Shown one piece after another: positions 52,615-64,000 of a stretch of DNA of 64,000 bases. The translations under genes were made by a program, and so were the position numbers. This stretch comes from an uncultured Methanosarcinales archaeon (GTDB lineage Archaea > Nanobdellota > Nanobdellia > Woesearchaeales > GW2011-AR4): NCBI GenBank assembly GCA_964436645.1, contig CAYTDO010000003.1, positions 939 through 64,938 on the forward strand, in the 5' to 3' direction. Every line of letters begins with the position of its first letter. The first letter of the stretch is position 1. Under the pieces are notes generated by a model that saw only the letters and a list, made by a program, of their open reading frames with translations, was not told the origin of the DNA and did no database searches.

Positions 52615-54123
52615 ATGCCTAAAGATACTGCTAAGGAAGAGAAGGAAGCAATCAAAACCCAGCACGACAAAGGTAAATTGACGGCTAGGGAAAGAATAGC
52701 TCTTTTGCTGGACAAAGGGAACTTCGTAGAGCTTGATGCCGGGGTAGAGTTGAGGAGTACTAATTTCGGATTGCAGGAAAAAAAGAAGCCCGGAGATGGA
52801 GTAATAACCGGCTTTGGAAAGATAAATGACAGGCCAGTATGCATTTTTGCCCAGGATTTTATATTCATGGGCGGCTCGATGGGAGAGATGCACAACAAAA
52901 AGATATCGGCCATCCAGGAGCATGCCTTGAAGATAGGATGCCCAATAATAGGAATATTTGATTCAGGGGGGGCTAGAATCCAGGAAGGCATTAATTCTCT
53001 TGATGCCGGCGGCTTAATTTTCAAAAACAACACTTTAGCTTCCGGAGCAATACCGCAGATTTCCATTATTCTAGGGCCATGCGCTGGAATTGCTGTTTAT
53101 TCTCCAGCGTTGACTGATTTTATTTTCATGACCAAGAAGATAAGCTACATGTTTATTACCGGCCCTAATGTTATAAAGACAATTACCGGGGAGAATATTG
53201 ATTTCGACGGTTTAGGTGGGCCAATTGCTCATTCTGAAAAAAGCGGAGTGGCGCATTTTATAAGCGAAGACGAGAAAGACTGTTTTGAGACAGTAAAACT
53301 GCTCCTAAGCTACCTTCCGCAAAACAATTTAGAAAATTCTCCTTATATGTCTGTGCAGGATAATGCTGAAAGGCAGAATACAAAATTAAAAAATATAATT
53401 CCAAAAGAAGACAAGAAGAGCTATGACGTCAATGATGTAATTAATGAGGTTGTGGACAAAAATACATTTTTAGAGGTGCAGCCGTTATACGCGCAGAATG
53501 CAGTCACTGGGTTGGCAAGATTAAATGGGCTATCTATTGGCATAGTTGCAAACCAGCCAAAGATTCTTGCTGGATGCCTGGACATAAACAGCTCTGATAA
53601 GATTGCAAGATTTGTAAGGCTATGTGATGCATTTAATATTCCTATTATCAATTTTGTGGACGTAACAGGATATTTGCCTGGAGTCAGCCAGGAGCATAAT
53701 GGAATAATAAGGCATGGGGCAAAAATACTTTATGCTTATTCGGAAGCAGTTGTCCCTAAGATCAGCCTTATCATGAGGAAGGCTTATGGCGGCGCTTATA
53801 TTGCTTTGGCATCCAAGCAGATGGGATATGACAAGGTCATAGCATGGCCTAATTCTGAGATTGCGGTAATGGGGGCGGAGCAGGCTGTAAATATTATTTA
53901 TAAAAAAGATATTGATGCTGACAAGAGCGGGAAAGTAAAGAAGGAAAAAATAGCTGAATATTCTGAAAAATTCCTAAATCCGGACGAGGCCGTAAAACAT
54001 GGCCAAGTCGATTTAATTATCGAGCCAAAGGACACCAGGAAGATACTAATCCGGTGCCTTGAGATGATTATTACCAAGAGAGAAAGAAGGCCGGCAAAAA
54101 AACATGGCAATATTCCGTTATAA
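52615..54123 (+). CDS. acyl-CoA carboxylase carboxyltransferase subunit (PccB / methylmalonyl-CoA carboxyltransferase family)
   Basis: 502-aa product with N- and C-terminal crotonase-fold CT domains and motifs matching propionyl-CoA carboxylase beta. Confidence 0.9.
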   Translation: MPKDTAKEEKEAIKTQHDKGKLTARERIALLLDKGNFVELDAGVELRSTNFGLQEKKKPGDGVITGFGKINDRPVCIFAQDFIFMGGSMGEMHNKKISAIQEHALKIGCPIIGIFDSGGARIQEGINSLDAGGLIFKNNTLASGAIPQISIILGPCAGIAVYSPALTDFIFMTKKISYMFITGPNVIKTITGENIDFDGLGGPIAHSEKSGVAHFISEDEKDCFETVKLLLSYLPQNNLENSPYMSVQDNAERQNTKLKNIIPKEDKKSYDVNDVINEVVDKNTFLEVQPLYAQNAVTGLARLNGLSIGIVANQPKILAGCLDINSSDKIARFVRLCDAFNIPIINFVDVTGYLPGVSQEHNGIIRHGAKILYAYSEAVVPKISLIMRKAYGGAYIALASKQMGYDKVIAWPNSEIAVMGAEQAVNIIYKKDIDADKSGKVKKEKIAEYSEKFLNPDEAVKHGQVDLIIEPKDTRKILIRCLEMIITKRERRPAKKHGNIPL

Positions 54124-54237
54124 AAATTGATGAATAAATCGCGAGGCGAGATTAGTGGCAAGACAATTTCGCCAAGCACTATATGTTGCCGCGAAGCGAC
54201 ATATTGAAGTTTAGAATTACTAAAATTTTTACTCCAA

Positions 54238-54627
54238 ATGGAAGATCTAACCATCAAAGTTGACGGCAAGGAATATAGCGTTAAGGTAGAGGAGACTGAA
54301 GATGGCAAGCTTCTGGTGCACTGCAATGGCGATGTCTATGAGGTTGAAACTCCATATAATAAGCAGGCGGCAATCTTCAGCAGGGCAAAGAGACAGGACA
54401 TAGAAGAAACCGGGAAATCTGCCATCACTGCTCCCTTGCCAGGTACAATATTCGAGGTCAAGATTAAGAAAGGGGATAAAGTCAAAGAAGGGGATTCCTT
54501 AATCAAACTTATTGCGATGAAAATGGAGAATGACATCACTGCCAAAAAATCCGGAGTGGTGCAGGAAGTAAGGGTCAAGAAGAATGATACTGTCAATAAG
54601 GATGATATTTTGGCCATTATAGAATAA
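54238..54627 (+). CDS. biotin carboxyl carrier protein (biotin-requiring domain)
   Basis: C-terminal LIKLIAMKMENDI contains the biotinyl-lysine AMKM motif. Confidence 0.85.
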   Translation: MEDLTIKVDGKEYSVKVEETEDGKLLVHCNGDVYEVETPYNKQAAIFSRAKRQDIEETGKSAITAPLPGTIFEVKIKKGDKVKEGDSLIKLIAMKMENDITAKKSGVVQEVRVKKNDTVNKDDILAIIE

Positions 54628-54809
54628 AAGGAGCATTATTAAGAAAACAGTAAATATAAATTCAATTAAAAATAATAAGAACCAATAGAAAAAAAATCAA
54701 TAACTAATGGAATATAATAAAATTAATATCATAACAATAAAAACACTTAAAATAAAATTTAAAAAATAAATTTAATTGAAAATTGACAAAATGAAGCGGA
54801 GGTAATCTC

Positions 54810-55388
54810 ATGGCGAAGAAAAAAACAGAGACTGGCGATAGAAAAAAACAGCAATCAAATCTGAAACTTTTGGTCTTCTCGGCTTTGTTTGCCGCTTTGA
54901 CGGCTGCAATAGCGCCTTTCAAGATACCTCTTTGGTTTACACCTGTTCCAATTACTTTGCAAACTTTAGCTGTCCTGATGTCTGGAGCAATGCTCGGGCC
55001 TTATTATGGAGCCCTGGCAATGATACTCTATGTTGTTGTCGGAGCATTGGGCCTTCCTGTGTTTGCTGGAGGGGGTTCTGGAATAGGAGCTCTTCTTGGG
55101 CCAACTGGCGGATATCTGATAAGCTATTTCATAGCAGCATTTGTAATTGGAAAAGTTGTGCAGATGAGAAAAGAGCCTAAGTATGTTGATTATGTTGTTG
55201 CAATGGTAGCTGGAACGCTTATAATCTATTTGCTTGGCGCTGGGTGGGCAATGGTTGTGCTTCCAGAGCTGACTTTAACAGCAGTCCTTATAGGATGGGT
55301 GCTTCCGTTCATAATTGGAGATACAATAAAGCTGCTCATAGCTGCGCATATAGCAAATACTGTCAAATTAAAGCAGTATTTGAGATAA
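54810..55388 (+). CDS. bioY: biotin transporter BioY (ECF S component)
   Basis: 192 aa, six TM helices, with BioY-like motifs PVPITLQTLAVLMSG and GGYLISYF. Confidence 0.8.
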   Translation: MAKKKTETGDRKKQQSNLKLLVFSALFAALTAAIAPFKIPLWFTPVPITLQTLAVLMSGAMLGPYYGALAMILYVVVGALGLPVFAGGGSGIGALLGPTGGYLISYFIAAFVIGKVVQMRKEPKYVDYVVAMVAGTLIIYLLGAGWAMVVLPELTLTAVLIGWVLPFIIGDTIKLLIAAHIANTVKLKQYLR

Positions 55389-55406
55389 ATCCTTTTTTGA
55401 GGGAAA

Positions 55407-56279
55407 ATGAGTTCTGCAAAGATTGAGCTATTGGATATTTTCTCATATAGCTGCATGAACTGCTTGAGGTCTTTAGAGTATATTAAAAAACTCGATAAAA
55501 GATATGGAAAATTTGGATTAGCTACTATATTAGTCCATGTTCCTGAATGGGAATTTGAGAAGAATAAGTCCAATATACAAAAAGCAATAAAAAAATACAA
55601 AATAAAATTCCCAAAAATAATCGATAAAGACAGAAAATTGCTGGGGAGAATGAAGATTAATTTTTGGCCTGCGCAAATATTGCTAAAAGATGCTCGAACG
55701 GAAATTCGAACAGAGTTCGGCGTCCACTACATGGAGTTCGGCACCAACTACGTTGATGGTAAGGAAGTTTACAGGCATGTTGGGGAGGGCAACTATAAAT
55801 TATTAGAGAATAAGATAAGAACTGAACTTGGAATAAATAAAATTAGCAAATTATTGTTTAAAACTGAGCCAAAGTATTCAAAGCATCCTACAATATATGC
55901 CGGCAGCAGAAAAAATGGAAAGGTCTCGGGATCATATGATGCAGAAGACATGAAGTATGGAACTATTTACGCTAACGGGTCTTTTTTGCAAAAAAAGGAA
56001 TATTTGGAAAGTATTGGCAAAGGATCAATAAAAATAAAAACGAGATGCAAAATAATCAATATTGTTGCAGAATCGTTAACAAAAAAATCAATAATGATTA
56101 AAATATCTTCCAATAAAAGAAAAAAAAAAGGAAAAAATCATAAAAAAATCAATACAAAAGTTATCAGAATATGCAATCCGAGACTATATACACTTAATCA
56201 ATCAAAAAAAACTAATCCGCAAATTTTAGAGATTGAAACTAATAAAGGATTGGCAGTTTATTCATTTTCATTTCAATAA
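55407..56279 (+). CDS. thioredoxin-fold (redoxin/TlpA-like) protein with a Lys-rich low-complexity C-terminal half
   Basis: SYSCMNC (CxxC), FPKIIDKDRKLLGRMKINFWPAQILL (redoxin-like with cis-Pro), then a K/N-rich tail. Confidence 0.45.
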   Translation: MSSAKIELLDIFSYSCMNCLRSLEYIKKLDKRYGKFGLATILVHVPEWEFEKNKSNIQKAIKKYKIKFPKIIDKDRKLLGRMKINFWPAQILLKDARTEIRTEFGVHYMEFGTNYVDGKEVYRHVGEGNYKLLENKIRTELGINKISKLLFKTEPKYSKHPTIYAGSRKNGKVSGSYDAEDMKYGTIYANGSFLQKKEYLESIGKGSIKIKTRCKIINIVAESLTKKSIMIKISSNKRKKKGKNHKKINTKVIRICNPRLYTLNQSKKTNPQILEIETNKGLAVYSFSFQ

Positions 56280-56315
56280 ATAATTTCAATCATAAAATAT
56301 CAAATTTAAAAAACA

Positions 56316-57014
56316 ATGATAGAAGCAAAAAATCTCCATTTCCAGTATGAGGGAGAAGCAGTATTGCAAAAAATAAGCCTAAGCATAAGGGAAGGGAGCT
56401 ATACTGCTATTATAGGGGCCAATGGCTCGGGAAAGACTACTCTTGCAAAGCATTTCAATGCCTTGCTTACACCAACGAAAGGCGCCGTTTTTGTCGATAA
56501 TATTGACACAAAAAAAGATCCTTTTGCAGTCAGGAAAAAGGTTGGTTTTGTGTTCCAGAATCCAGAGGACCAGTTGGTTTATTCTATTGTAGAGGAAGAT
56601 ATTGCTTTCGGGCTGGAAAACATTGGCATGGAAACAAAAGCAATGAAGGAGAAAGTAAATTTTATCCTTAAAGAATTAGGGATAGGGCATCTTGCAAAGA
56701 AGAATGTCAATGCGCTTTCAATGGGGCAGAAGCAGCTTACCGCTCTTGCAGGTGTATTGGTTATGAGCCCAAAATATATAGTTTTTGATGAGCCAACTAC
56801 AATGCTGGACAGCCGCAATAAAAATAATATTATGTCGATAATAAATCACATAAATAAAAAAAATAATATTGGGATAATAATGGCCACTAATGTGCTTGAT
56901 GATACAAAATATGCAGAGAATGTGGTTGCATTAAAGAATGGAAAAATAATATTCAATGATAAAAAATCTAAATTAAATCGAAAAGTTATCAAGGGGGCTG
57001 GTTTGGATGCTTAA
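56316..57014 (+). CDS. ecfA: ECF transporter ATP-binding protein (EcfA/CbiO)
   Basis: Walker A GANGSGKTTL, signature LSMGQKQ, Walker B IVFDEPTTMLD. Confidence 0.85.
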   Translation: MIEAKNLHFQYEGEAVLQKISLSIREGSYTAIIGANGSGKTTLAKHFNALLTPTKGAVFVDNIDTKKDPFAVRKKVGFVFQNPEDQLVYSIVEEDIAFGLENIGMETKAMKEKVNFILKELGIGHLAKKNVNALSMGQKQLTALAGVLVMSPKYIVFDEPTTMLDSRNKNNIMSIINHINKKNNIGIIMATNVLDDTKYAENVVALKNGKIIFNDKKSKLNRKVIKGAGLDA

Positions 57015-57729
57015 GAGGCTTAGCTTCGGCCAATATACGCATAAGGATTCTTTAATCCATAAATTGGACCCCCGGATAAAGGTACTAGCGGTTGTTATTT
57101 TAAGCGCATCGGCATTTTTGATAAAATCTTACTACAATATGTCCATGCTTTCCTTTCTTGTTTTGCTGCTTGTGCTCATTGCAAAAATCAATTTTTCTTC
57201 CTTGATAATAAATCTAAGGCCTTTATCCCCGATAATGATATTTATCCTTATAATGTATCTTTTATTCTCGCCAAACCAATTAGATAAGGGTATATTATCC
57301 ATATGGAGGTTTTTATTGTTCGTCGCTATAGCGCTTATACTTACTTTTACCACAACAATTAATTCAATGGTCACTGGAATAGAAAAAATGATTGTGCCAT
57401 TGAAATTTTTTAGAGTAAATCCAAGGACATTTGCATTGCTTATTTCACTGACAATACGATTTATTCCTTCGTTTTTTCTTTACGCAGAGCGTATTAGAGA
57501 TGCAAGATTAGCCAGGTTAGGCAGCCTGAAGAAGGCAAAGCATATCAAATTGCTGTTTATCCAGTTGCTTGACAGAATTTTCAAAAGCGCATCAACTATG
57601 AGCGATGCCATGGTTGCAAGGAGCTATACTGCTGAAAGAAAATCTTATTTCAATAAAATACATTTAAGGGCTAATGATTATATCTCTCTTTTTGTTTTAA
57701 TGGCTGCAGTATTGATTATATTAATTTAA
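57007..57729 (+). CDS. ecfT: ECF transporter transmembrane component (EcfT/CbiQ)
   Basis: 240 aa, about 5 TM helices. The position after ecfA and an Arg-rich coupling helix region (ERIRDARLARLG) fit EcfT. Confidence 0.7.
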   Translation: MLKRLSFGQYTHKDSLIHKLDPRIKVLAVVILSASAFLIKSYYNMSMLSFLVLLLVLIAKINFSSLIINLRPLSPIMIFILIMYLLFSPNQLDKGILSIWRFLLFVAIALILTFTTTINSMVTGIEKMIVPLKFFRVNPRTFALLISLTIRFIPSFFLYAERIRDARLARLGSLKKAKHIKLLFIQLLDRIFKSASTMSDAMVARSYTAERKSYFNKIHLRANDYISLFVLMAAVLIILI

Positions 57730-57851
57730 TGAGTGTATTGATTAATTGATCCAATTTATTTAGCTAAAATTGATTTTATTGGATTATTTAGCCTACTTAA
57801 TTGATTTAATAAGTTAGGATTGTTTTTAGAACTGGCTGCTTAGTTGGTTAT

Positions 57852-58088
57852 TTACTGCCTTGGTGATTTCTGTCCGAATAATATTCCTGTCAGAACGTTA
57901 AGGGCCCATGCCTGCCAGACATTTATGGAATGCATGCTTCCAAAGACAAAGTTCCACAGCAATTTTACCGGGAATGCGAGGACTAGGCCTACAATGCCGC
58001 TTATCAGTATAACTAATAGAAGAGTGTAGCTCATCTCGAGCATCCTTTTCAAAAACGGCACATCATTCAAAAAGCCCATAGTTGTCAA
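57852..58088 (-). CDS. small hypothetical membrane protein (78 aa)
   Basis: One clear TM helix. Overlapped by an alternative plus-strand ORF, so uncertain. Confidence 0.25.
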   Translation of the reverse strand: MTTMGFLNDVPFLKRMLEMSYTLLLVILISGIVGLVLAFPVKLLWNFVFGSMHSINVWQAWALNVLTGILFGQKSPRQ

Positions 58089-58161
58089 TTCTATAGAAAA
58101 AGCAGCCCTTTTTAAAGATTTTGATGAAAAGTTTATAAATTACAGCCAGCTAAAAATCCAA

Positions 58162-58569
58162 ATGAGGGCCAATAGAACTGAGCAGAGGGTTTATTATTCT
58201 GATACTGACCATGTCGGAGTTGTTTATTACGCCAATTACCTTAAGTGGTTTGAAATAGGCAGGACAGAGATTCTTAGGGAAAATAAGCTTGATTATGATG
58301 AGTTCGAAAGGCAGGGATTAATAGCTCCTGTTGTTGAGGTAAAATGCACATTTAAGGATCCTGCGAAATATAATGACCGGATAATCATAGAAACCAAAGT
58401 CGAGCATGTTGGAAACAGCAGCATAAAGTTTGTTTATGGCATAATAAGAAAAAATGACAAGAAATTGCTGGCAGAAGGCTATACTGTAAATGTATTTGTA
58501 GGCATGAAGACTGGAAAGCCTGCAAGAATACCTGAGAGATTGAGGAAGATTTTTTATGGCAAGAATTAA
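58162..58569 (+). CDS. acyl-CoA thioesterase (YbgC/4HBT hot-dog family)
   Basis: YYSDTDHVGVVYYANYLKWFEIGRTE is the canonical 4HBT/YbgC N-terminal motif with catalytic Asp. Confidence 0.85.
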   Translation: MRANRTEQRVYYSDTDHVGVVYYANYLKWFEIGRTEILRENKLDYDEFERQGLIAPVVEVKCTFKDPAKYNDRIIIETKVEHVGNSSIKFVYGIIRKNDKKLLAEGYTVNVFVGMKTGKPARIPERLRKIFYGKN

Positions 58570-59285
58570 ACAACAAAAATGTCCGCTTCTGTTATTTTCT
58601 TGGTTTTTCCATTTTTTAATTTTAGTATGAGATTGCAGCCATCATCTACGTCTATTGCTTTGCCGACAAAATCTCCATTGAGGGTTTTTGCCTTTATATC
58701 TTTTCCAAGAGTATGCGAGGATTTTTTCCATAATGATATTATTTTTTTGTAGCTTTTAGATTCATAGCATTTGTATAATGATGAGAAGTTTTTAATGATG
58801 GATTTTGACATATTCTCTATGCTGAATGTTTTTTTTGATTCCAGTTTCAATGATGTAGCTTTGTTTTTTATAGAATTTGAAAACTTATCTATGTTTACGT
58901 TAACACCTATCCCAACCAAGGCGTAATTCTCTTTGCCGTGTATGGTTTCGGTCAATATCCCGCAAACTTTTTTATCGCTTATCAAAACATCGTTTGGCCA
59001 TTTTACCCTTGCATTTAACTGCGATATAGTTTTTATGGATTTTGCGACTGCAATCGAGGCAATAAGCGTAAGGTATTTTATCCTAGCTGGATGCTCTTCT
59101 TTTAAAATTATCGTCATGTAAAGACCGCCTAATTCCGAGTTCCATTTCCTTCCAAACCTGCCTTTGCCCCCTTCCTGCTTTTTTGCAGTTATTACCAAAT
59201 TATAGATGCCTTGGCCTGCAAATTCTTTTGCCTTGTCATTGGTTGATGAAATAGTTTCAAAATTGCAGAATTCAAAATTTAGCAT
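58566..59285 (-). CDS. birA: biotin--protein ligase (BirA catalytic domain, no HTH)
   Basis: GGKGRFGRKW matches the GRGRxGRxW biotin-binding loop. KWPNDVLI. Confidence 0.85.
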   Translation of the reverse strand: MLNFEFCNFETISSTNDKAKEFAGQGIYNLVITAKKQEGGKGRFGRKWNSELGGLYMTIILKEEHPARIKYLTLIASIAVAKSIKTISQLNARVKWPNDVLISDKKVCGILTETIHGKENYALVGIGVNVNIDKFSNSIKNKATSLKLESKKTFSIENMSKSIIKNFSSLYKCYESKSYKKIISLWKKSSHTLGKDIKAKTLNGDFVGKAIDVDDGCNLILKLKNGKTKKITEADIFVV

Positions 59286-61182
59286 TTAGCTCTTGCTCCA
59301 TCAAATCACGACGTCCTGCCATTGTCCACTGAGAATTAGATTGGACAAATTTTTTCTTCTCAAGATATCTGGATACTGATGTTGTTACAATTATAAGCCT
59401 TTGCTCCTTTGTAAGCTCCTTCTTCTGACCATAATAATTCTTGACTTCCTTGAGAATTTCATTTTTCTCTATAAAAGATGTTGTGACTCTTCCCCTAATA
59501 AAATTTGTATTGTTAAGGGCAGCAAGATGGAAGGGTATTGTGGTGCTAATCCCCTGGATTTTGTATTCCTTCAATGCTCCAATCATTCTTGCCAAAGCCT
59601 CTTGCCTAGTTTTGCCGTGGCATATCAGCAAGGCCAATAAGGAATCATAATGCGGCAGAACTTTATAGCCCTGATGGCAGATGCTGTTCAGCCTTATACC
59701 TGGGCCGCCAGGAGGAAGGTAGTTAGTTATTGTTCCTATCGAAGGGGTAAAGTCTCCCAACGGGTCTTCTGCATTTATCCTGCATTCAATTGCGCAGCCA
59801 TTCATCTTTATGTCTTCCTGGGTAAATGCCATTTTAGCCCCTGCTGCAATCTTTATCTGCTCCTTTACTAAGTCAACGCCAGTCACCATTTCTGTTACAC
59901 CGTGCTCTACCTGGATTCTTGTGTTAACTTCAATGAAATAGAAGTTTTTGTTTTTATCCAATAAGAATTCAACAGTCCCGGCGCCTTCATAATTTGCAGC
60001 GGAAATTACTTTTACAGCGGCATTGCCCATCTTTTCCCTTAACTCATCACTTAAAGCAGGGCTTGGGCTTTCCTCTATAAGCTTCTGGTGCTTCCTCTGT
60101 ACACTGCAATCTCTTTCTCCAAGATGGATTACGTTGCCATATTGATCTGCTAAAATCTGGAATTCTATATGTCTGGGATTCTCAATATATTTTTCCATGT
60201 ACAATGTCTTGTCCTTGAAAGAAAGCATTGCCTCAGCTTCCGCGCTTTCATAGAATTTTTCGACATCTTCTTCCTTCCTTACGATCCTCATCCCCTTCCC
60301 GCCGCCGCCGGCAGCAGCTTTAATGATAACAGGGAATCCTATAGTTTTTGCAAGCTTAAGGGCATGGCGCTTGTTTTTGAGAGACTTTATCGTCCCAATG
60401 ATTATAGTGACTCCTGCCTTCAAAACTGTCTTTTTTGCTTTTACTTTGTTTCCCAAAAGCCCTATTGTCCTGGAAGAAGGCCCTATAAACTTAATATTGT
60501 TCTTGGTGCATAATTTCGCAAACTTGGCATTTTCAGCCAAAAAGCCATATCCCGGATGGATTGCATCTGCCTCAATCTTTTTAGCGATTTGTATTATTTT
60601 TTTAATGTCGAGGTAGCTTGAGCCTTGGCCAATATAGTAAGATTTGTCTGCAAGCTTTACAGCCAGATTATCTTTATCATGATTGGAATAAACTAAAGCT
60701 GTTTCGATTCCCAGCTCTCTGCATGCCCTTATCACCCTTAAGGCTATCTCACCCCTATTTGCAATCAGAACTTTCTTGAACTGTTTTTCTTTTGCCAGCA
60801 GGGTGTATTCTTTTTCTTCCCCAACACTAAGCCCTTTTGCAATCATATCAATAAAGCTTTTTGAGGATTTGCTTTCAACTATTTTCTTCAACTCTTTATG
60901 GTCAACATGAGAAAACTTTCCAAGAAGCCTTGAGGTTATTGCCTCTCCGATATGCGCCAAGTGCTTTTTTTTGAAAGATGGATTATGCTTTCCAATCTGG
61001 ACTACATTGCTTTTGATAAAATGATCAATCTCTTGGTAGACTAAAGGAGCTGATTTTTGAACATGCTTTGCGGCTTTTTTCAAGGCCCTATAGGAATAAA
61101 CTACAGGGGTTAAGCTTTTGTTTAGGGCGGCTGCTAGGGTTTTTTTTAGTTTAAAGCGTATTCCTGATTCATTTACTGCCAT
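59272..61182 (-). CDS. biotin carboxylase (AccC/PycA-like) with an unusual ~112-aa basic N-terminal extension. An alternative start lies at 60846.
   Basis: KKVLIANRGEIALRVIRACRELGI..., an ATP-grasp core, and the C-terminal biotin-carboxylase domain. The conserved region begins at residue ~130 of the longest ORF. Confidence 0.85.
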   Translation of the reverse strand: MAVNESGIRFKLKKTLAAALNKSLTPVVYSYRALKKAAKHVQKSAPLVYQEIDHFIKSNVVQIGKHNPSFKKKHLAHIGEAITSRLLGKFSHVDHKELKKIVESKSSKSFIDMIAKGLSVGEEKEYTLLAKEKQFKKVLIANRGEIALRVIRACRELGIETALVYSNHDKDNLAVKLADKSYYIGQGSSYLDIKKIIQIAKKIEADAIHPGYGFLAENAKFAKLCTKNNIKFIGPSSRTIGLLGNKVKAKKTVLKAGVTIIIGTIKSLKNKRHALKLAKTIGFPVIIKAAAGGGGKGMRIVRKEEDVEKFYESAEAEAMLSFKDKTLYMEKYIENPRHIEFQILADQYGNVIHLGERDCSVQRKHQKLIEESPSPALSDELREKMGNAAVKVISAANYEGAGTVEFLLDKNKNFYFIEVNTRIQVEHGVTEMVTGVDLVKEQIKIAAGAKMAFTQEDIKMNGCAIECRINAEDPLGDFTPSIGTITNYLPPGGPGIRLNSICHQGYKVLPHYDSLLALLICHGKTRQEALARMIGALKEYKIQGISTTIPFHLAALNNTNFIRGRVTTSFIEKNEILKEVKNYYGQKKELTKEQRLIIVTTSVSRYLEKKKFVQSNSQWTMAGRRDLMEQELNAKF

Positions 61183-61250
61183 AGACTAAAGCATAGTTTT
61201 TTGTTTTATAAACGTTTCTACCAATTGGTTACGCGCGATTGATACGCAAT

Positions 61251-61320
61251 GAGGGGCATAAAGCCCCTCGCCGCAGCTTTCTTGCTGCTTGATAGCTGCG
61301 GTGTATGGCTTACAGCCATA
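61251..61320 (+). other. three tandem GC-rich stem-loops followed by a T-run (candidate small RNA, terminator or leader)
   Basis: Stem-loops gaggggc-ataaa-gcccctc, ccgcagct-(16 nt)-agctgcgg and gtatggct-taca-gccatac, then catccTTTTTT. Lies in the divergent spacer between the biotin carboxylase and fabZ-like genes. Confidence 0.35.
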
Positions 61321-61406
61321 CATCCTTTTTTGGCTCTTAGTGATTCAATTTTAGCCCTAAGATTCCAAGACGAAACCTTTTTAAACGACTTAGCATTAGA
61401 CGAGAC

Positions 61407-61904
61407 ATGCAGGAAATAGACAATTTCAAGGATAAAAACGGGGGCATTTCAAGGGAAAATATAAAGAAAATCATTCCTTATGACGACCCTTTTTTGCTTA
61501 TTGACCATATTTCAGGCTTATCAAAGAAGAAGGTAGTTGCGACAAAGGAAGTCAAAGCAGATGAATATTATCTTAAGGGGCATTTCAAGGATTTTCCAAT
61601 CATGCCAGGGGCTTTGATTGTTGAAGGGCTTGGCCAGGCAGCAACTTTGCTTATCCGATATAATATCCCTAATCATTGGGAAAAGGATGTTTTGGCATAT
61701 AAGATTAGAGGAGCTAAGTTTTTCAGGCCTGCATTTCCTGGGCATACTTTAACTTTTAAGGCTAAGCTCATATTAATGTTCAAAAAAATCGCTTTTGTGA
61801 ACGGAGAGGTTTTCAGGAATGAAAAGCTTGTTTCGAAAGTGAAGATGGTCTTGGCAATTGTTGATAAAAAGCAATTCCGCGAAAGATACAGCGGGAAAAT
61901 ATAA
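61407..61904 (+). CDS. FabZ-like 3-hydroxyacyl-thioester dehydratase (hot-dog fold)
   Basis: LLIDHI...YYLKGHFKDFPIMPGALIVEGLGQAA matches the FabZ/FabA active-site His and motif. Confidence 0.75.
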   Translation: MQEIDNFKDKNGGISRENIKKIIPYDDPFLLIDHISGLSKKKVVATKEVKADEYYLKGHFKDFPIMPGALIVEGLGQAATLLIRYNIPNHWEKDVLAYKIRGAKFFRPAFPGHTLTFKAKLILMFKKIAFVNGEVFRNEKLVSKVKMVLAIVDKKQFRERYSGKI

Positions 61905-61928
61905 TTTTAAGGTTCTATCGAGGGAAAA

Positions 61929-63056
61929 ATGTATATCAAAGGAGTAGGAATGACGAAATTCGGTGTGCATGCTGAAACCAGCCAGGAGATGTGCTATGAG
62001 GCTATTTCCGAGGCTCTTGAAGATGCAGATATGCCATTGGAAGAGATAGATGAAATCATAATAGCTAAAGGAGATTCCTCTGTTGATGGGGAAAGGCAAA
62101 GGCTTTTTTCAGCGGTTTTGAGCAGCATGCTGCAGGACAGGGGAATTCCAATCATCAGAGTTGTTGCTGCATGCAGCGGCGGAGGGGCTGCTGTATGGAA
62201 TGCTGTCAACTCAGAAGCTAGAAATATTTTGGCAGTTGGAGTTGAAAAGCTAACACCGCCTCCAACGAGGTTTGTAACTGATGACCTTATGATGGCCTCA
62301 GAGAGGATTTATGAGCAGACAGAAGGGATGAATTTTCCGGCGCAGAATGCGTTGATTGCGCAGCAATATATGATGAAATATAATGTTTCTCCTAAAGACC
62401 TATCTCTTGTTGCATTGAAAAATCATGAGAATGCTTTCAATAATCCTAAGGCGCGTTTTTTTGGAAAAAAAGTAACTTTGGATATGATAAATAAATCTCC
62501 CATTGTTGCTTCTCCCTTGAGGCTTTTTGACTGCAGCATATCTGTTGATGGGGCTGCAGCTGCGATAATAAGCAAGGATAAAACTGATATTGAGATTGCA
62601 GGGTCTTCATTGTACGCAGATAGATTGCCTGCTTTCGAAGCCAAGGATATGACATCATGGAATGGCAGCGTACTTGCTTCAAAAGATGCTTATGCTCAAG
62701 CCGGGATTAGTGCGAAAGATGTTGATTTTGCCGAGCTGCATGATGCCTTTACCTCAGTGGAATTGATGGCTTATGAAGATCTAGGATTTGCAGAAAAAGG
62801 AAAGGGCAAGGATTTGATTAGAAAAGGAAAGACAAGCATGAATGGTGAGCTTCCTGTGAATACCTCTGGCGGATTGAAAGCCAAAGGGCACCCTATCAGC
62901 GCTACCGGAATATCTCAAATTTATGAGATAGCAAGGCAGATGAGGAAGCAGGCTGATAAAAGACAGTTAGACAGGACGAAGATAGGATTAGCGCATAATG
63001 TAGGCGGAGTAGGAAGCACAGTTACTGTGCATATATTAAAATGTATAGGTGGTTAA
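61929..63056 (+). CDS. archaeal-type thiolase (acetyl-CoA C-acetyltransferase, SCP-x-like)
   Basis: 375 aa with N-terminal YIKGVGMTKFG and an active-site Cys region (VVAACSGGGAAV), typical of archaeal thiolases that pair with DUF35 proteins. Confidence 0.85.
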   Translation: MYIKGVGMTKFGVHAETSQEMCYEAISEALEDADMPLEEIDEIIIAKGDSSVDGERQRLFSAVLSSMLQDRGIPIIRVVAACSGGGAAVWNAVNSEARNILAVGVEKLTPPPTRFVTDDLMMASERIYEQTEGMNFPAQNALIAQQYMMKYNVSPKDLSLVALKNHENAFNNPKARFFGKKVTLDMINKSPIVASPLRLFDCSISVDGAAAAIISKDKTDIEIAGSSLYADRLPAFEAKDMTSWNGSVLASKDAYAQAGISAKDVDFAELHDAFTSVELMAYEDLGFAEKGKGKDLIRKGKTSMNGELPVNTSGGLKAKGHPISATGISQIYEIARQMRKQADKRQLDRTKIGLAHNVGGVGSTVTVHILKCIGG

Positions 63057-63058
63057 AA

Positions 63059-64000
63059 ATGATAATAAGATGGGTTTCTGAAGACGGAAAGAGAAAGTGG
63101 ATGTATCCAGTAAAGCAGGATTTGCATACTAAAGGCAGAGTAATCAAACAGGTAAGCAGGAAAGCTAAAATAATTGGAATCACCAAAGTGAATATACCCT
63201 CTCCATTGCATCCAATAGTTCCTTACAATATTCTATTGCTTGAAGATGAGTATGGAAATAGAATGCCTAAAAAAACTATGAAAGAGTACAGGATAGGGGG
63301 AACTTATGAAGTTATGCCGGCAAAGACGGATGGAGCTGTTGTTGTTACGAAAATAAAATATGATCTTTTGGAGTATCTTAAAGAATCTTTACGGCTGGTC
63401 CATGAGTATAATATAAGTGCTGAGGATAAAATTCTGATAAAGCCGAGCATAATTGAGCCTGCTTACGGCTACCAGGCTGTCAATACAAACCCCCAGATCC
63501 TTGATGCGCTTTTGGAGATACTTAAGGATAAAGGAGTAACGGATATTGTTGTTGCTGAGCAATCGATGCTTGGGAATGATACTATTGAAAGCGCAAAGAA
63601 ATCAGAGCTATTGGATGTGTGCAAGAAAAATGCTGTGAAGTTTGTTGATTTATCCAAATCTGAATTTGTTTCGAAGGAATTTGATGGGTTTAATTTTAAA
63701 ATTGCGAAAGAATTGTTTGAGAGGAAGGTTATTAATTTACCAGTCATGAAGACGAATTCCCAGATTGGAATTTCAGGCGCAATTGAAAATATGTTAAGGG
63801 TTGCGGATGCGGAAACCCAGAAAAGAATGTTTTCAGAGGATATAGAAAAAACACTGCCTAAGTTGCTTAAGGTCCTGCCTGAGTTTTTGACAATAGGAGA
63901 TGCTACTATCGGAATGCAGGCGCAAGGGCCTACATCATTAGGAGAGCCAGCTTTCCTGAATATGGTTTTTGTCAGCAGGGATGCCGTCGCTTTGGATGCT
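63059..64000 (+). CDS. DUF35-type OB-fold protein (thiolase partner) continuing without a stop into a DUF362-like domain. Partial: runs off the window end.
   Basis: Hand translation from the ATG at 63059 is open to position 64000. The N-terminal part (GRVIKQVSRKAKIIGITKVNIPSPLHPIVPYNILLLEDEYGNRMPKKTMKEYRIGGTYEV) matches the DUF35 OB-fold but has no Zn ribbon. Downstream, KILIKPSIIEPAYGYQAVNTNPQILDALLEILKDKGVTDIVVAE resembles DUF362. Confidence 0.5.
   Translation, partial: MIIRWVSEDGKRKWMYPVKQDLHTKGRVIKQVSRKAKIIGITKVNIPSPLHPIVPYNILLLEDEYGNRMPKKTMKEYRIGGTYEVMPAKTDGAVVVTKIKYDLLEYLKESLRLVHEYNISAEDKILIKPSIIEPAYGYQAVNTNPQILDALLEILKDKGVTDIVVAEQSMLGNDTIESAKKSELLDVCKKNAVKFVDLSKSEFVSKEFDGFNFKIAKELFERKVINLPVMKTNSQIGISGAIENMLRVADAETQKRMFSEDIEKTLPKLLKVLPEFLTIGDATIGMQAQGPTSLGEPAFLNMVFVSRDAVALDA

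What the first reader, a model, noticed from the sequence alone, without database searches (positions are those of the whole stretch)
63059..64000. DUF35 thiolase-partner OB-fold lacking its Zn ribbon and running on into a DUF362-like domain
DUF35 proteins that scaffold archaeal thiolase normally have a four-Cys Zn ribbon and are about 130 aa. Here the Cys are absent and the frame continues for more than 180 further residues with DUF362-like motifs (KILIKPSIIEP...TNPQIL) to the window edge. This is an unusual fusion that could link thiolase to an as yet unknown activity.
Basis: seen in the sequence. Interest (0 to 1): 0.5.

Follow-up and report, generated by a model that had tools for sequence, protein, structure and literature searches.

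The report
Thiolase-docking adaptor fused to DUF362
This is a real gene, conserved in Woesearchaeota, in which a shrunken, cysteine-free version of the DUF35 "thiolase partner" is fused to a lactate-racemase-like DUF362 domain; it sits at the centre of a fatty-acid and phospholipid gene cluster in archaea usually thought unable to make lipids.

Summary
An ORF starts at ATG 63059, two bases after the stop of a thiolase gene, and stays open to the window edge (314 codons). Residues 1-124 have no Cys, and residues 125-314 are DUF362 (Pfam E 6e-31). It is not a frameshift: a 100% identical 489-aa protein exists, over 120 protein clusters share the full architecture, and relatives occur in about 75 species-level genomes.

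The N-terminal roughly 90 residues are a truncated, divergent DUF35:
- The best structural matches are nearly all DUF35 chains.
- A broad family profile matches canonical DUF35 (hhalign 90%, E 1.5e-6).
- The gene always follows a thiolase.
- Relatives keep CxxC...CxxC.

The Cys ligands were lost stepwise (CCCC, then CDCC, then none), at least twice. The same adaptor is also found alone, or fused to 3-hydroxyacyl-CoA dehydrogenase or an SDR ketoreductase, always after a thiolase.

The neighbourhood is a conserved supercluster: acyl-CoA carboxylase, FabZ, thiolase, fusion, thiolase, SDR, GpsA and two PlsC.

Best reading: an adaptor that tethers a cargo module to thiolase in a CoA-based fatty-acid synthase. 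What the cargo does is not resolved. I class it as a new variant of a known kind.

The parts
63059..64000 (+). 5' 314 codons of the 489-codon fusion gene (mini-DUF35, DUF362 and a NuoB-like domain). The last 175 codons lie beyond the window.
   Evidence: Open frame. P0001 is 100% identical and 489 aa. AlphaFold2 model: pLDDT 91, pTM 0.89.
63059..63136 (+). Degenerate Zn-ribbon knuckles (residues 1-26). The ligand positions 7, 10, 21 and 24 are S, G, D and T instead of four Cys.
   Evidence: Census of 116 homologues: CCCC 32, CDCC 60, no Cys 24. hhalign aligns these positions to the CxxC...CxxC of canonical DUF35.
63137..63358 (+). Short OB-like beta-barrel of the mini-DUF35 (residues 27-100), carrying the invariant IPSP.HP..PY..LLLEDE.GN motif.
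63359..63421 (+). Linker helix (residues 101-121) that joins the adaptor to DUF362.
   Evidence: Helix 103-113 in both models. pLDDT is about 94 in the full-length model but 56-69 when the domain is modelled alone, which suggests that it packs on DUF362.
63431..64000 (+). DUF362 domain with the LarA fold (residues 125-314; Pfam places the end at residue 316, just past the window edge).
61929..63056 (+). Thiolase 1, of the SCP-x/archaeal type. It is the presumed docking partner, and its stop codon lies 2 nt before the fusion's ATG.
   Evidence: Pfam Thiolase_C_1 and Thiolase_N; NCBIfam PRK06064. Closest solved relatives are 7yvy_A (1e-67) and 6esq_A (3e-54), followed by BbsB, Ltp2 and PhlC. 6esq_A, BbsB, Ltp2 and PhlC come from entries solved together with a DUF35 protein.
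61407..61904 (+). FabZ-like 3-hydroxyacyl dehydratase.
   Evidence: Pfam FabA-like E 1.6e-17; NCBIfam FabZ E 1e-27, below that model's cutoff. It lies immediately upstream of thiolase 1 in nearly all loci.
59272..61182 (-). Biotin carboxylase subunit of an acyl-CoA carboxylase. It carries about 134 extra N-terminal residues.
   Evidence: Pfam Biotin_carb_N, CPSase_L_D2 and Biotin_carb_C. Conserved position in the cluster.
58566..59285 (-). Biotin-protein ligase (BirA-like).
   Evidence: Pfam BPL_LplA_LipB and BPL_C.
58162..58569 (+). 4HBT-family acyl-CoA thioesterase.
   Evidence: Pfam 4HBT_2 E 3e-23. Present at the same place in many loci.
52615..54123 (+). Carboxyltransferase subunit of the acyl-CoA carboxylase.
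   Evidence: Pfam Carboxyl_trans E 1e-182.
54238..54627 (+). Biotin carboxyl carrier protein.
   Evidence: Pfam Biotin_lipoyl E 2e-19.
54810..57729 (+). BioY (54810-55388) with an ECF-type ATPase (56316-57014) and T component (57007-57729): biotin uptake. The thioredoxin-like gene at 55407-56279 lies between them.
   Evidence: Pfam BioY, ABC_tran, CbiQ and Thioredoxin_10.

Best explanation
The gene is real and encodes a three-domain protein of 489 aa, of which the window holds the first 314.

Domain 1 (about 100 aa) is a truncated, highly divergent DUF35-type module, made of Zn-ribbon knuckles and a short OB barrel. In this sub-lineage all four zinc ligands have been replaced, but the fold is kept. 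Domain 2 is a DUF362 domain with the lactate-racemase (LarA) fold. Domain 3, beyond the window, is a NuoB / [NiFe]-hydrogenase-small-subunit-like alpha/beta domain. In ancestral-looking relatives it has four Cys in an Fe-S-type pattern; here it has none.

Proposed mechanism:
1. Inferred by analogy with solved DUF35 complexes: domain 1 docks on the dimer of the thiolase encoded immediately upstream, and possibly also on the second thiolase paralogue encoded immediately downstream.
2. Inferred: this holds domains 2-3 next to the thiolase's CoA site, so that the 3-oxoacyl-CoA made by the unfavourable Claisen condensation is passed straight on.
3. Shown by synteny, with function inferred: the assembly is the core of a CoA-based, ACP-free fatty-acid synthesis cluster. 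The cluster contains acyl-CoA carboxylase, FabZ, two thiolases, an SDR ketoreductase and a thioesterase. In relatives it also contains GpsA and two PlsC-type acyltransferases.
4. Inferred: in relatives with canonical motifs and Fe-S-type Cys, the DUF362 cargo is probably a redox enzyme that acts on the thiolase product. It occupies the same fused position as 3-hydroxyacyl-CoA dehydrogenase or an SDR ketoreductase does in other lineages.
5. Inferred: the window's lineage has lost the Fe-S-type Cys and the canonical His and Lys of DUF362, and a separate SDR is normally encoded in the cluster. The cargo therefore most likely now serves as a non-redox binding or scaffolding module.
For: Real gene and real fusion. 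Thirty-seven of the 38 loci from L007 to L044 have a complete ORF of 460-519 aa (L028 is cut by its contig end), and medium forms run 372-386 aa.

DUF35 identity of domain 1:
- Foldseek: the top 17 hits are all DUF35 chains, probability 0.99-1.00, TM 0.43-0.50.
- hhalign of a 59-sequence family profile against canonical DUF35 from the same lineage gives probability 90.2% and E 1.5e-6. It aligns both CxxC knuckles and the VPY motif.
- Distant members give co-linear sub-threshold Pfam hits to zf-ChsH2 and OB_ChsH2_C.

Thiolase partnership:
- The gene directly follows a thiolase in the window, in nearly all of the 80 loci, and for every other architecture examined.
- Among thiolase 1's closest solved relatives are the DUF35-partnered thiolases 6esq_A, BbsB, Ltp2 and PhlC.

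Adaptor-plus-cargo logic: an exhaustive HMMER search of 1.84 billion representatives finds only 120 proteins carrying this domain. In them it is fused to DUF362 (long, medium or short form), to 3HCDH, or to an SDR, or it stands alone.

Loss of ligands in the cargo: class A has KTH-x9-KNMKG and PCSGC...GNCAI...GCPP, whereas the window family has KTN-x9-EN and ANPYV...GNEAI...GSIP.

Supercluster.
Against: - No physical interaction was tested. Docking is inferred from synteny, fold and analogy.
- Pfam's DUF35 models do not detect the domain. PDB sequence searches find nothing.
- No member of DUF362 has a demonstrated function in the literature I could search, so any statement about the cargo's chemistry is inference.
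- The DUF362 domain of the window family is almost as conserved as the adaptor (0.71 against 0.77 mean column identity). It also has many invariant polar residues (R222, K231, Q235, E243, N244, R247, D313). That pattern would also fit a still-active enzyme with altered chemistry.
- The correspondence of the DUF362 KTH-x9-K motif to LarA's His174 and Lys184 comes from my memory of LarA. It could not be tested here.
Confidence: 0.6

Rival explanations
1. The DUF362 cargo of the window family is still an enzyme of the pathway rather than a scaffold. It could be a metal-independent 3-oxoacyl- or 3-hydroxyacyl-CoA oxidoreductase or epimerase, or the missing enoyl-CoA reductase of long-form clusters.
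For: - The DUF362 domain is strongly conserved, with many invariant polar residues.
- The LarA fold is one used for hydride shuttling at a secondary alcohol (PMC11770544).
- In other lineages the same adaptor carries true ketoreductases, either 3HCDH or SDR.
- None of 23 long-form loci with at least 8 kb downstream has ACAD/EtfAB in the cluster, against 8 of 15 medium-form loci. Long-form clusters therefore show no obvious enoyl reductase.
Against: - The family has lost the canonical DUF362 His and Lys (KTH to KTN, KN to EN) and all four Fe-S-type Cys of the C-terminal domain.
- A separate SDR is normally present, and several long-form clusters have two SDR genes, one of which could be FabI-like.
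- Medium-form proteins keep DUF362 even where ACAD/Etf is present.
- No cofactor is predictable.
Confidence: 0.25
2. This is an artefact: two ordinary genes, a DUF35 and a DUF362, were merged by a sequencing error or a missed stop near 63400.
For: None was found. It is only a prior possibility for an assembled metagenomic contig.
Against: - The frame is continuous.
- The same architecture occurs in more than 120 protein clusters from independent samples and sources and in 80 loci from different species-level genomes, with complete ORFs of matching length.
- The linker helix is conserved and modelled confidently as packing on DUF362.
Confidence: 0.01
3. The N-terminal module is not a thiolase adaptor but an unrelated small Zn-ribbon/OB nucleic-acid-binding domain, so the gene has a regulatory or RNA-related role.
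Against: - 6htj ranks among the DUF35 chains in both structure searches.
- The gene lies directly after a thiolase in every architecture and lineage examined.
- The fusion partners are acyl-CoA enzymes.
- The broad family profile matches canonical DUF35.
Confidence: 0.04

Closest known systems
DUF35 scaffold of the archaeal acetoacetyl-CoA thiolase/HMG-CoA synthase complex (PDB 6ESQ/6ET9, Methanothermococcus thermolithotrophicus)
   Same: - A Zn-ribbon plus OB fold.
- The gene lies directly after an SCP-x-type thiolase, and thiolase 1 matches 6esq_A at 3e-54.
- The gene sits between two thiolase-superfamily genes.
- Presumed role: pulling the unfavourable condensation by channelling.
   Different: - It is about 90 aa rather than about 130; in the alignment it lacks canonical DUF35's first 22 and last 24 residues.
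- Pfam models do not detect it.
- There is no Cys in the window protein.
- It is fused to two further domains.
- The partner on the other side is a second thiolase, not HMGCS.
- A canonical HMGCS-thiolase-DUF35 trio exists separately in some of the same genomes, so this is a paralogous system.
Sulfolobus acidocaldarius fatty-acid synthase complex: ketothiolase/DUF35 (Saci_1121/1120) binding ketoacyl-CoA reductase and MaoC dehydratase (bioRxiv 10.1101/2024.07.05.601840)
   Same: - CoA-based, ACP-free fatty-acid synthesis organised around a thiolase/DUF35 pair.
- The cluster here likewise has a thiolase, an SDR reductase and a dehydratase.
   Different: - There the DUF35 stands alone and partners bind non-covalently; here the adaptor is covalently fused to a DUF362 module.
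- The dehydratase here is FabZ-type, not MaoC.
- An acyl-CoA carboxylase and bacterial-type GpsA/PlsC genes are co-clustered here.
ChsH2(DUF35)-Ltp2 and Shy(DUF35)-Sal steroid side-chain aldolase complexes (PDB 6OK1, 9MYR)
   Same: This is the precedent for a DUF35 covalently fused to a pathway enzyme in order to dock it onto a thiolase-fold protein. Both are structural neighbours of the N-domain.
   Different: - There DUF35 is C-terminal to a MaoC hydratase and keeps its Cys4 ribbon; here it is N-terminal to DUF362.
- The partner here is a thiolase that keeps the aligned nucleophile Cys, HD.F and GHP motifs, not an aldolase.
PhlABC / MucABC multicomponent acyltransferases (PhlB = DUF35; PDB 5M3K, 9VBO/9VBT)
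   Same: A DUF35 bridges two different thiolase-fold proteins (PhlA and PhlC). This resembles the thiolase-fusion-thiolase gene order here. Both are structural neighbours.
   Different: PhlB stands alone with no DUF362, and the chemistry differs (Friedel-Crafts acyl transfer).
DUF362 (PF04015) and the LarA / DUF2088 lactate-racemase superfamily (Pfam clan CL0471)
   Different: - Sequence identity to LarA-family chains is only 12-14%.
- The window family has changed the canonical DUF362 motifs (KTH to KTN, KN to EN).
- There is no evidence of a nickel-pincer cofactor.
- The DUF362 family itself has no demonstrated function.

Membership tests
DUF35 (Pfam PF12172 zf-ChsH2 + PF01796 OB_ChsH2_C) | A match to the family's Pfam HMMs above the gathering cutoff. 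| tested here: not met
   - No hit, even at E <= 1, for the window protein or for the 4-Cys relative P0092.
- Only distant family members give co-linear sub-threshold hits: P0285 at E 0.0025 and 0.0057, and P0278 at E 0.013.
- Canonical DUF35 from the same lineage passes both models.
DUF35 | Homology detectable by profile-profile comparison. | tested here: met
   hhalign of the 59-sequence family profile A4 against three canonical DUF35: probability 90.2%, E 1.5e-6, 80 columns, aligning both knuckles and the VPY motif. The narrow profile A2 alone is not significant (E 0.079).
DUF35 | A rubredoxin-like Zn ribbon followed by an OB fold. | tested here: met
- Foldseek: the top 17 hits are all DUF35 chains, probability 0.99-1.00, TM 0.43-0.50.
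- The scores are modest. In the alignment the module lacks canonical DUF35's first 22 and last 24 residues.
DUF35 | Four Cys (CxxC...CxxC) that ligate zinc. | tested here: not met
   - In the window protein the four positions are S7, G10, D21 and T24.
- Across the family the counts are 32 CCCC, 60 CDCC and 24 with no Cys.
- All other clades have four Cys.
DUF35 | The gene is adjacent to, and the protein complexes with, an SCP-x/archaeal-type thiolase-fold protein. | tested here: met
   Adjacency holds in the window (2-nt spacer), in nearly all 80 loci and for all the other architectures. Physical complex formation cannot be tested with these tools.
DUF362 (PF04015) | A match to the Pfam HMM above the gathering cutoff. 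| tested here: met
   E 6e-31, 108.5 bits against a cutoff of 24, covering profile positions 1-196 of 200. For full-length P0001 the value is E 3e-31.
DUF362 (PF04015) | The motifs conserved in the best-scoring (class A) members: KPN, VTNP, KTH-x9-KNMKG and DG..LEGMGP. | tested here: inconclusive
   The motifs are partly kept (IKPS, NTNP, GDATIGMQAQGP). The His is Asn in the window protein (His or Asn across the family), and the Lys is an invariant Glu (E243). Whether these residues are catalytic is unknown.
LarA superfamily (nickel-pincer-nucleotide racemases, DUF2088) | The LarA fold. | tested here: met
LarA superfamily (nickel-pincer-nucleotide racemases, DUF2088) | The NPN-tethering Lys, the Ni-binding His and the catalytic His residues, together with LarB/C/E cofactor-synthesis genes in the genome. 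| not tested
   - No residue-level structural alignment was available.
- PDB sequence searches with A1 and A3 returned nothing.
- The larBCE genes were not searched for.
- I do not file the protein as a LarA-family enzyme.
NuoB / [NiFe]-hydrogenase small-subunit-like Fe-S domain (C-terminal domain, beyond the window) | A flavodoxin-like fold with four Cys (CxxC...C...GCPP) that bind a [4Fe-4S] cluster. | tested here: not met
- Class A relatives have PCSGC...GNCAI...GCPP.
- In P0001 all four positions are non-Cys (ANPYV, GNEAI, GSIP), and the whole protein has a single Cys, C188.

The most novel reading that the evidence does not exclude
The fusion is the organising subunit of a previously unrecognised, ACP-independent, thiolase-based fatty-acid synthase. 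The synthase is encoded in one supercluster with acyl-CoA carboxylase, FabZ, an SDR, NAD-dependent G3P dehydrogenase (GpsA) and two PlsC-type acyltransferases. That would let Woesearchaeota, and a few CPR bacteria, make bacterial-type ester phospholipids de novo. In its ancestral Fe-S-bearing form, DUF362 would be a new class of enzyme acting on 3-oxoacyl-CoA, an analogue of 3-hydroxyacyl-CoA dehydrogenase. That would give this large orphan family its first function.
Probability: 0.3. Interest if true: 0.8.

Novelty: new variant of a known kind. Interest (0 to 1): 0.6.

Why it matters
DUF35 proteins are the known glue of thiolase-based complexes in mevalonate synthesis, archaeal fatty-acid synthesis, steroid and aromatic degradation, and polyketide-like acylation. 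This locus adds three things.

First, it shows a minimal version of that glue, about 90 aa, which has escaped the family's HMMs. That version can be attached to different cargo enzymes and can do without its zinc site.

Second, it gives the first strong contextual handle on DUF362, a large orphan family related to lactate racemase. In glycan-modification clusters DUF362 occupies the position taken elsewhere by true 3-ketoacyl-CoA reductases.

Third, it marks a conserved supercluster that looks like a complete CoA-based route from acetyl-CoA to phosphatidic acid. The host is a DPANN archaeon, a group generally assumed to scavenge lipids from hosts, so the cluster bears on the archaeal/bacterial lipid divide. 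All three points are directly testable with recombinant proteins.

Tried and rejected
- **PDB sequence searches.** Searches with the full-length profile (A1), the N-domain profile (A2) and the class A profile (A3) found nothing at E <= 10. A residue-level comparison with LarA or with solved DUF35 by sequence was therefore impossible.
- **The search for homologous proteins with N-domain profiles.** A2 and A4 returned only short fragments of the same family and no canonical DUF35. The bridge to canonical DUF35 came instead from scanning the fetched loci for CxxC...CxxC ORFs next to thiolases.
- **The window's own contig.** The look-up of P0001 in the contig index found no record. No fetched locus matched P0001 above 67% identity. 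The downstream part of this contig therefore could not be read, and the nearest relatives (L007, L010) were used instead.
- **afdb50 fold library.** It was not available.
- **Frameshift or missed stop.** Considered and rejected (see the rival explanations).
- **Is the fusion simply the DUF35 of the mevalonate thiolase?** Rejected, because a canonical HMGCS-thiolase-DUF35 trio coexists with it in seven loci.
- **Is DUF362 the enoyl reductase?** ACAD/EtfAB turned up in medium-form clusters, which still keep DUF362. This weakens the idea but does not exclude it.
- **Mapping conserved residues onto a pocket.** Not possible, because model coordinates are not exposed.
Full report
**1. The observation**

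The thiolase ORF 61929-63056 ends in TAA. Two bases later, at 63059, an ATG opens a frame that stays open to base 64000, giving 314 codons. A GGTGG motif lies 9-13 nt upstream of the ATG. Residues 1-124 contain no Cys. Pfam places DUF362 (PF04015) on residues 125-314 at E 6e-31. Pfam's two DUF35 models do not hit the N-terminus even at E <= 1, so the DUF35 label needed independent testing.

**2. Not an artefact**

A search of 5.8 billion proteins returned 329 relatives. The best 120 clusters are nearly all about 480-490 aa and cover 100% of the query. One of them, P0001 (489 aa), is 100% identical to the window protein. A scan of one genome per species found relatives in 80 loci, almost all from Woesearchaeota or Nanoarchaeota, with complete ORFs of matching length. 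The fusion is an inherited architecture.

**3. What the N-terminal module is**

Relatives reveal what the window protein hides. At the positions of S7, G10, D21 and T24, 32 of 116 full-length homologues have CxxC...CxxC, 60 have CxxD...CxxC and 24 have no Cys.

I built a neighbour-joining tree on residues 30-355, which excludes the ribbon. In it the 4-Cys state is basal, the 3-Cys+Asp clade is nested within it, and the window's Cys-free group is nested within that. A second Cys-free lineage (P0089, L019, P0091) lies beside 4-Cys sequences. The ligands were therefore lost at least twice. The ribbon segment remains the most conserved part of the protein, with 0.78 mean column identity, and it is modelled confidently.

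The structural evidence is consistent:
- All of the top 17 Foldseek hits are DUF35 chains, with probability 0.99-1.00 and TM 0.43-0.50.
- The full-length model also finds 7pxp_A and 6ok1_D.

An exhaustive HMMER search of 1.84 billion representative proteins with the domain profile found only 120 proteins. A 59-sequence alignment of these (A4) was compared with three canonical DUF35 proteins that I found in Woesearchaeal loci; those three pass both Pfam models. The comparison gives hhalign probability 90.2% and E 1.5e-6 over 80 columns, aligning both knuckles and the VPY motif. The narrow Woesearchaeal profile alone does not reach significance.

Relative to canonical DUF35 (131-133 aa), the alignment leaves out its first 22 and last 24 residues. 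I therefore call the module a truncated, divergent DUF35 ("mini-DUF35"). It is homologous to the family, but it fails the family's HMMs, and in this lineage it also fails the Cys4 criterion.

**4. The adaptor-plus-cargo pattern**

The 120 proteins fall into five architectures:
- mini-DUF35 + DUF362 + a C-terminal domain (about 460-495 aa);
- mini-DUF35 + DUF362 only (about 335-386 aa);
- mini-DUF35 + 3-hydroxyacyl-CoA dehydrogenase (about 365 aa);
- mini-DUF35 + an SDR ketoreductase (331 aa);
- mini-DUF35 alone (80-90 aa).

In every case where I could see the upstream DNA, the gene directly follows a thiolase. Among the window thiolase's closest solved relatives are 6esq_A, BbsB, Ltp2 and PhlC, thiolase-fold proteins solved in complex with a DUF35 protein.

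Established work gives the mechanism for such pairs. DUF35 bridges thiolase and HMG-CoA synthase in 6ESQ. A ketothiolase/DUF35 pair binds the ketoacyl-CoA reductase and the dehydratase in S. acidocaldarius (10.1101/2024.07.05.601840). In ChsH2 and Shy, DUF35 is fused to a hydratase to dock it onto a thiolase-fold aldolase.

**5. The cargo**

Comparing the fusion proteins shows three grades:
- **Class A** (P0197, P0201, P0216, P0242, P0267, P0278) scores highest against Pfam DUF362. It has the motifs KPN, VTNP, KTH-x9-KNMKG and DG..LEGMGP. Its C-terminal domain has four conserved Cys, PCSGC...GNCAI...GCPP, which is the NuoB-type [4Fe-4S] pattern (my reading of the motif).
- **Class B**, the window's family, has KT(N/H)-x9-EN with an invariant Glu243. 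It has none of the four Cys (ANPYV, GNEAI, GSIP). P0001 has a single Cys in 489 residues.
- **Class C**, the short forms, lacks the third domain and has degenerate motifs.

Class A genes lie in glycan-modification clusters: thiolase, the fusion, a GNAT or hexapeptide acyltransferase, a polysaccharide deacetylase, glycosyltransferases and NeuB. The 3HCDH and SDR fusions lie in the same kind of cluster.

I infer from this that class A DUF362 acts on the thiolase product, most simply as an alternative 3-oxoacyl-CoA reductase. That is inference from context, not a demonstrated activity. No paper in the searchable library assigns DUF362 a function.

**6. The neighbourhood**

In the window, the genes upstream of the fusion are:
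- FabZ (61407-61904);
- a biotin carboxylase (59272-61182, minus strand);
- BirA (58566-59285, minus strand);
- a 4HBT thioesterase (58162-58569);
- an ECF biotin transporter with BioY;
- a biotin carboxyl carrier protein (BCCP) and a carboxyltransferase (52615-54627).

A tblastn census over the 80 loci shows nearly the same order throughout: carboxyltransferase, BCCP, (4HBT), BirA, biotin carboxylase, FabZ, thiolase, fusion, (SDR), thiolase, (CoA-transferase III), (methyltransferase-)SDR, GpsA, PlsC, PlsC. One Saccharibacteria contig (L078) carries a similar set.

No ACP, FabD or KAS gene appeared among the called genes of the clusters inspected.

Medium-form clusters often add an acyl-CoA dehydrogenase with EtfB and EtfA. 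This holds for 8 of 15 such loci with at least 8 kb downstream, against 0 of 23 long-form loci.

Seven loci also hold a canonical HMGCS-thiolase-DUF35 trio a few kb away. The fusion system is therefore paralogous to the mevalonate one.

The literature notes bacterial fatty-acid genes, GpsA and PlsC in Woesearchaeota (PMC8204110, PMC6431249). I found no description of this thiolase/DUF362 core.

**7. Verdict**

- Observation: confirmed.
The module is a DUF35-type thiolase partner with no Cys, truly fused to DUF362. However, the ribbon is degenerate rather than absent, and a frameshift is excluded.
- Best explanation (confidence 0.6): a thiolase-docking adaptor that covalently carries a LarA-fold module, at the core of a CoA-based fatty-acid synthesis cluster. 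In this lineage the cargo has lost its metal and cofactor ligands, so it probably acts as a scaffold.
- Main rival (0.25): the cargo is still catalytic.
- Novelty: a new variant of a known kind.
- Interest: 0.6.

Noticed in passing
window 52615-63056, and loci L007-L075: A conserved lipid supercluster. It holds acyl-CoA carboxylase (carboxyltransferase, BCCP, biotin carboxylase) with BirA and a BioY/ECF biotin importer, a 4HBT thioesterase, FabZ, two thiolases and one or more SDRs. In relatives it also holds NAD-dependent G3P dehydrogenase (GpsA) and two PlsC-type acyltransferases. It looks like a full ACP-free route to bacterial-type phosphatidic acid in a DPANN archaeon.
   Followed up: partly
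L036, L037 (13406-15990), L046, L050, L055, L071, L074: A canonical HMG-CoA-synthase-like gene, a third and more distant thiolase, and a 131-133 aa DUF35 that passes Pfam lie a few kb downstream of the fusion cluster. These genomes therefore carry two separate thiolase/DUF35 systems side by side.
   Followed up: partly
L053, L057, L059, L060 (13053-16180), L061, L062, L066, L073, L081: Clusters with the medium-length fusion (372-386 aa, no third domain) carry an acyl-CoA dehydrogenase with EtfB and EtfA between the SDR and the PlsC genes. This resembles a Bcd/Etf-type enoyl-CoA reductase. None of the 23 long-form loci with enough flank has it, so their enoyl reductase is unidentified.
   Followed up: partly
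L087-L089, L091, L093, L094, L097, L098: Outside Woesearchaeota, a thiolase followed by mini-DUF35 fused to 3HCDH, an SDR or Fe-S-bearing DUF362 sits in glycan-modification clusters. These contain GNAT or hexapeptide acyltransferases, a polysaccharide deacetylase, glycosyltransferases and NeuB. The setting suggests local synthesis of a 3-hydroxybutyryl or acetoacetyl donor for sugar N-acylation.
   Followed up: partly
window 59272-61182 (-): The biotin carboxylase is 636 aa. Pfam's Biotin_carb_N domain starts only at residue 135, and about 60 residues follow Biotin_carb_C, so there are unexplained terminal extensions.
   Followed up: no
L078 (Saccharibacteria), L077 (Paceibacterota), L080 (Patescibacteria): CPR bacteria carry short (about 342 aa) versions of the fusion after a thiolase. 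In L078 the fusion lies with an SDR, FabZ, two PlsC genes, a biotin carboxylase, BCCP and BirA. This points to gene sharing between DPANN archaea and CPR bacteria for this cluster.
   Followed up: no
L061 (fusion ORF of 743 aa): One locus has a much longer ORF containing the fusion (743 aa). It may be a further fusion or a mis-called start, and I did not examine it.
   Followed up: no
record titles of many loci (for example L008, L014, L017, L019): Many MAGs titled 'uncultured Methanosarcinales archaeon' (binchicken assemblies) carry this cluster, which is otherwise seen in Woesearchaeota and Nanoarchaeota records. Their fusion proteins also fall among those of Woesearchaeota records in the tree. 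The organism names in those records look unreliable.
   Followed up: no
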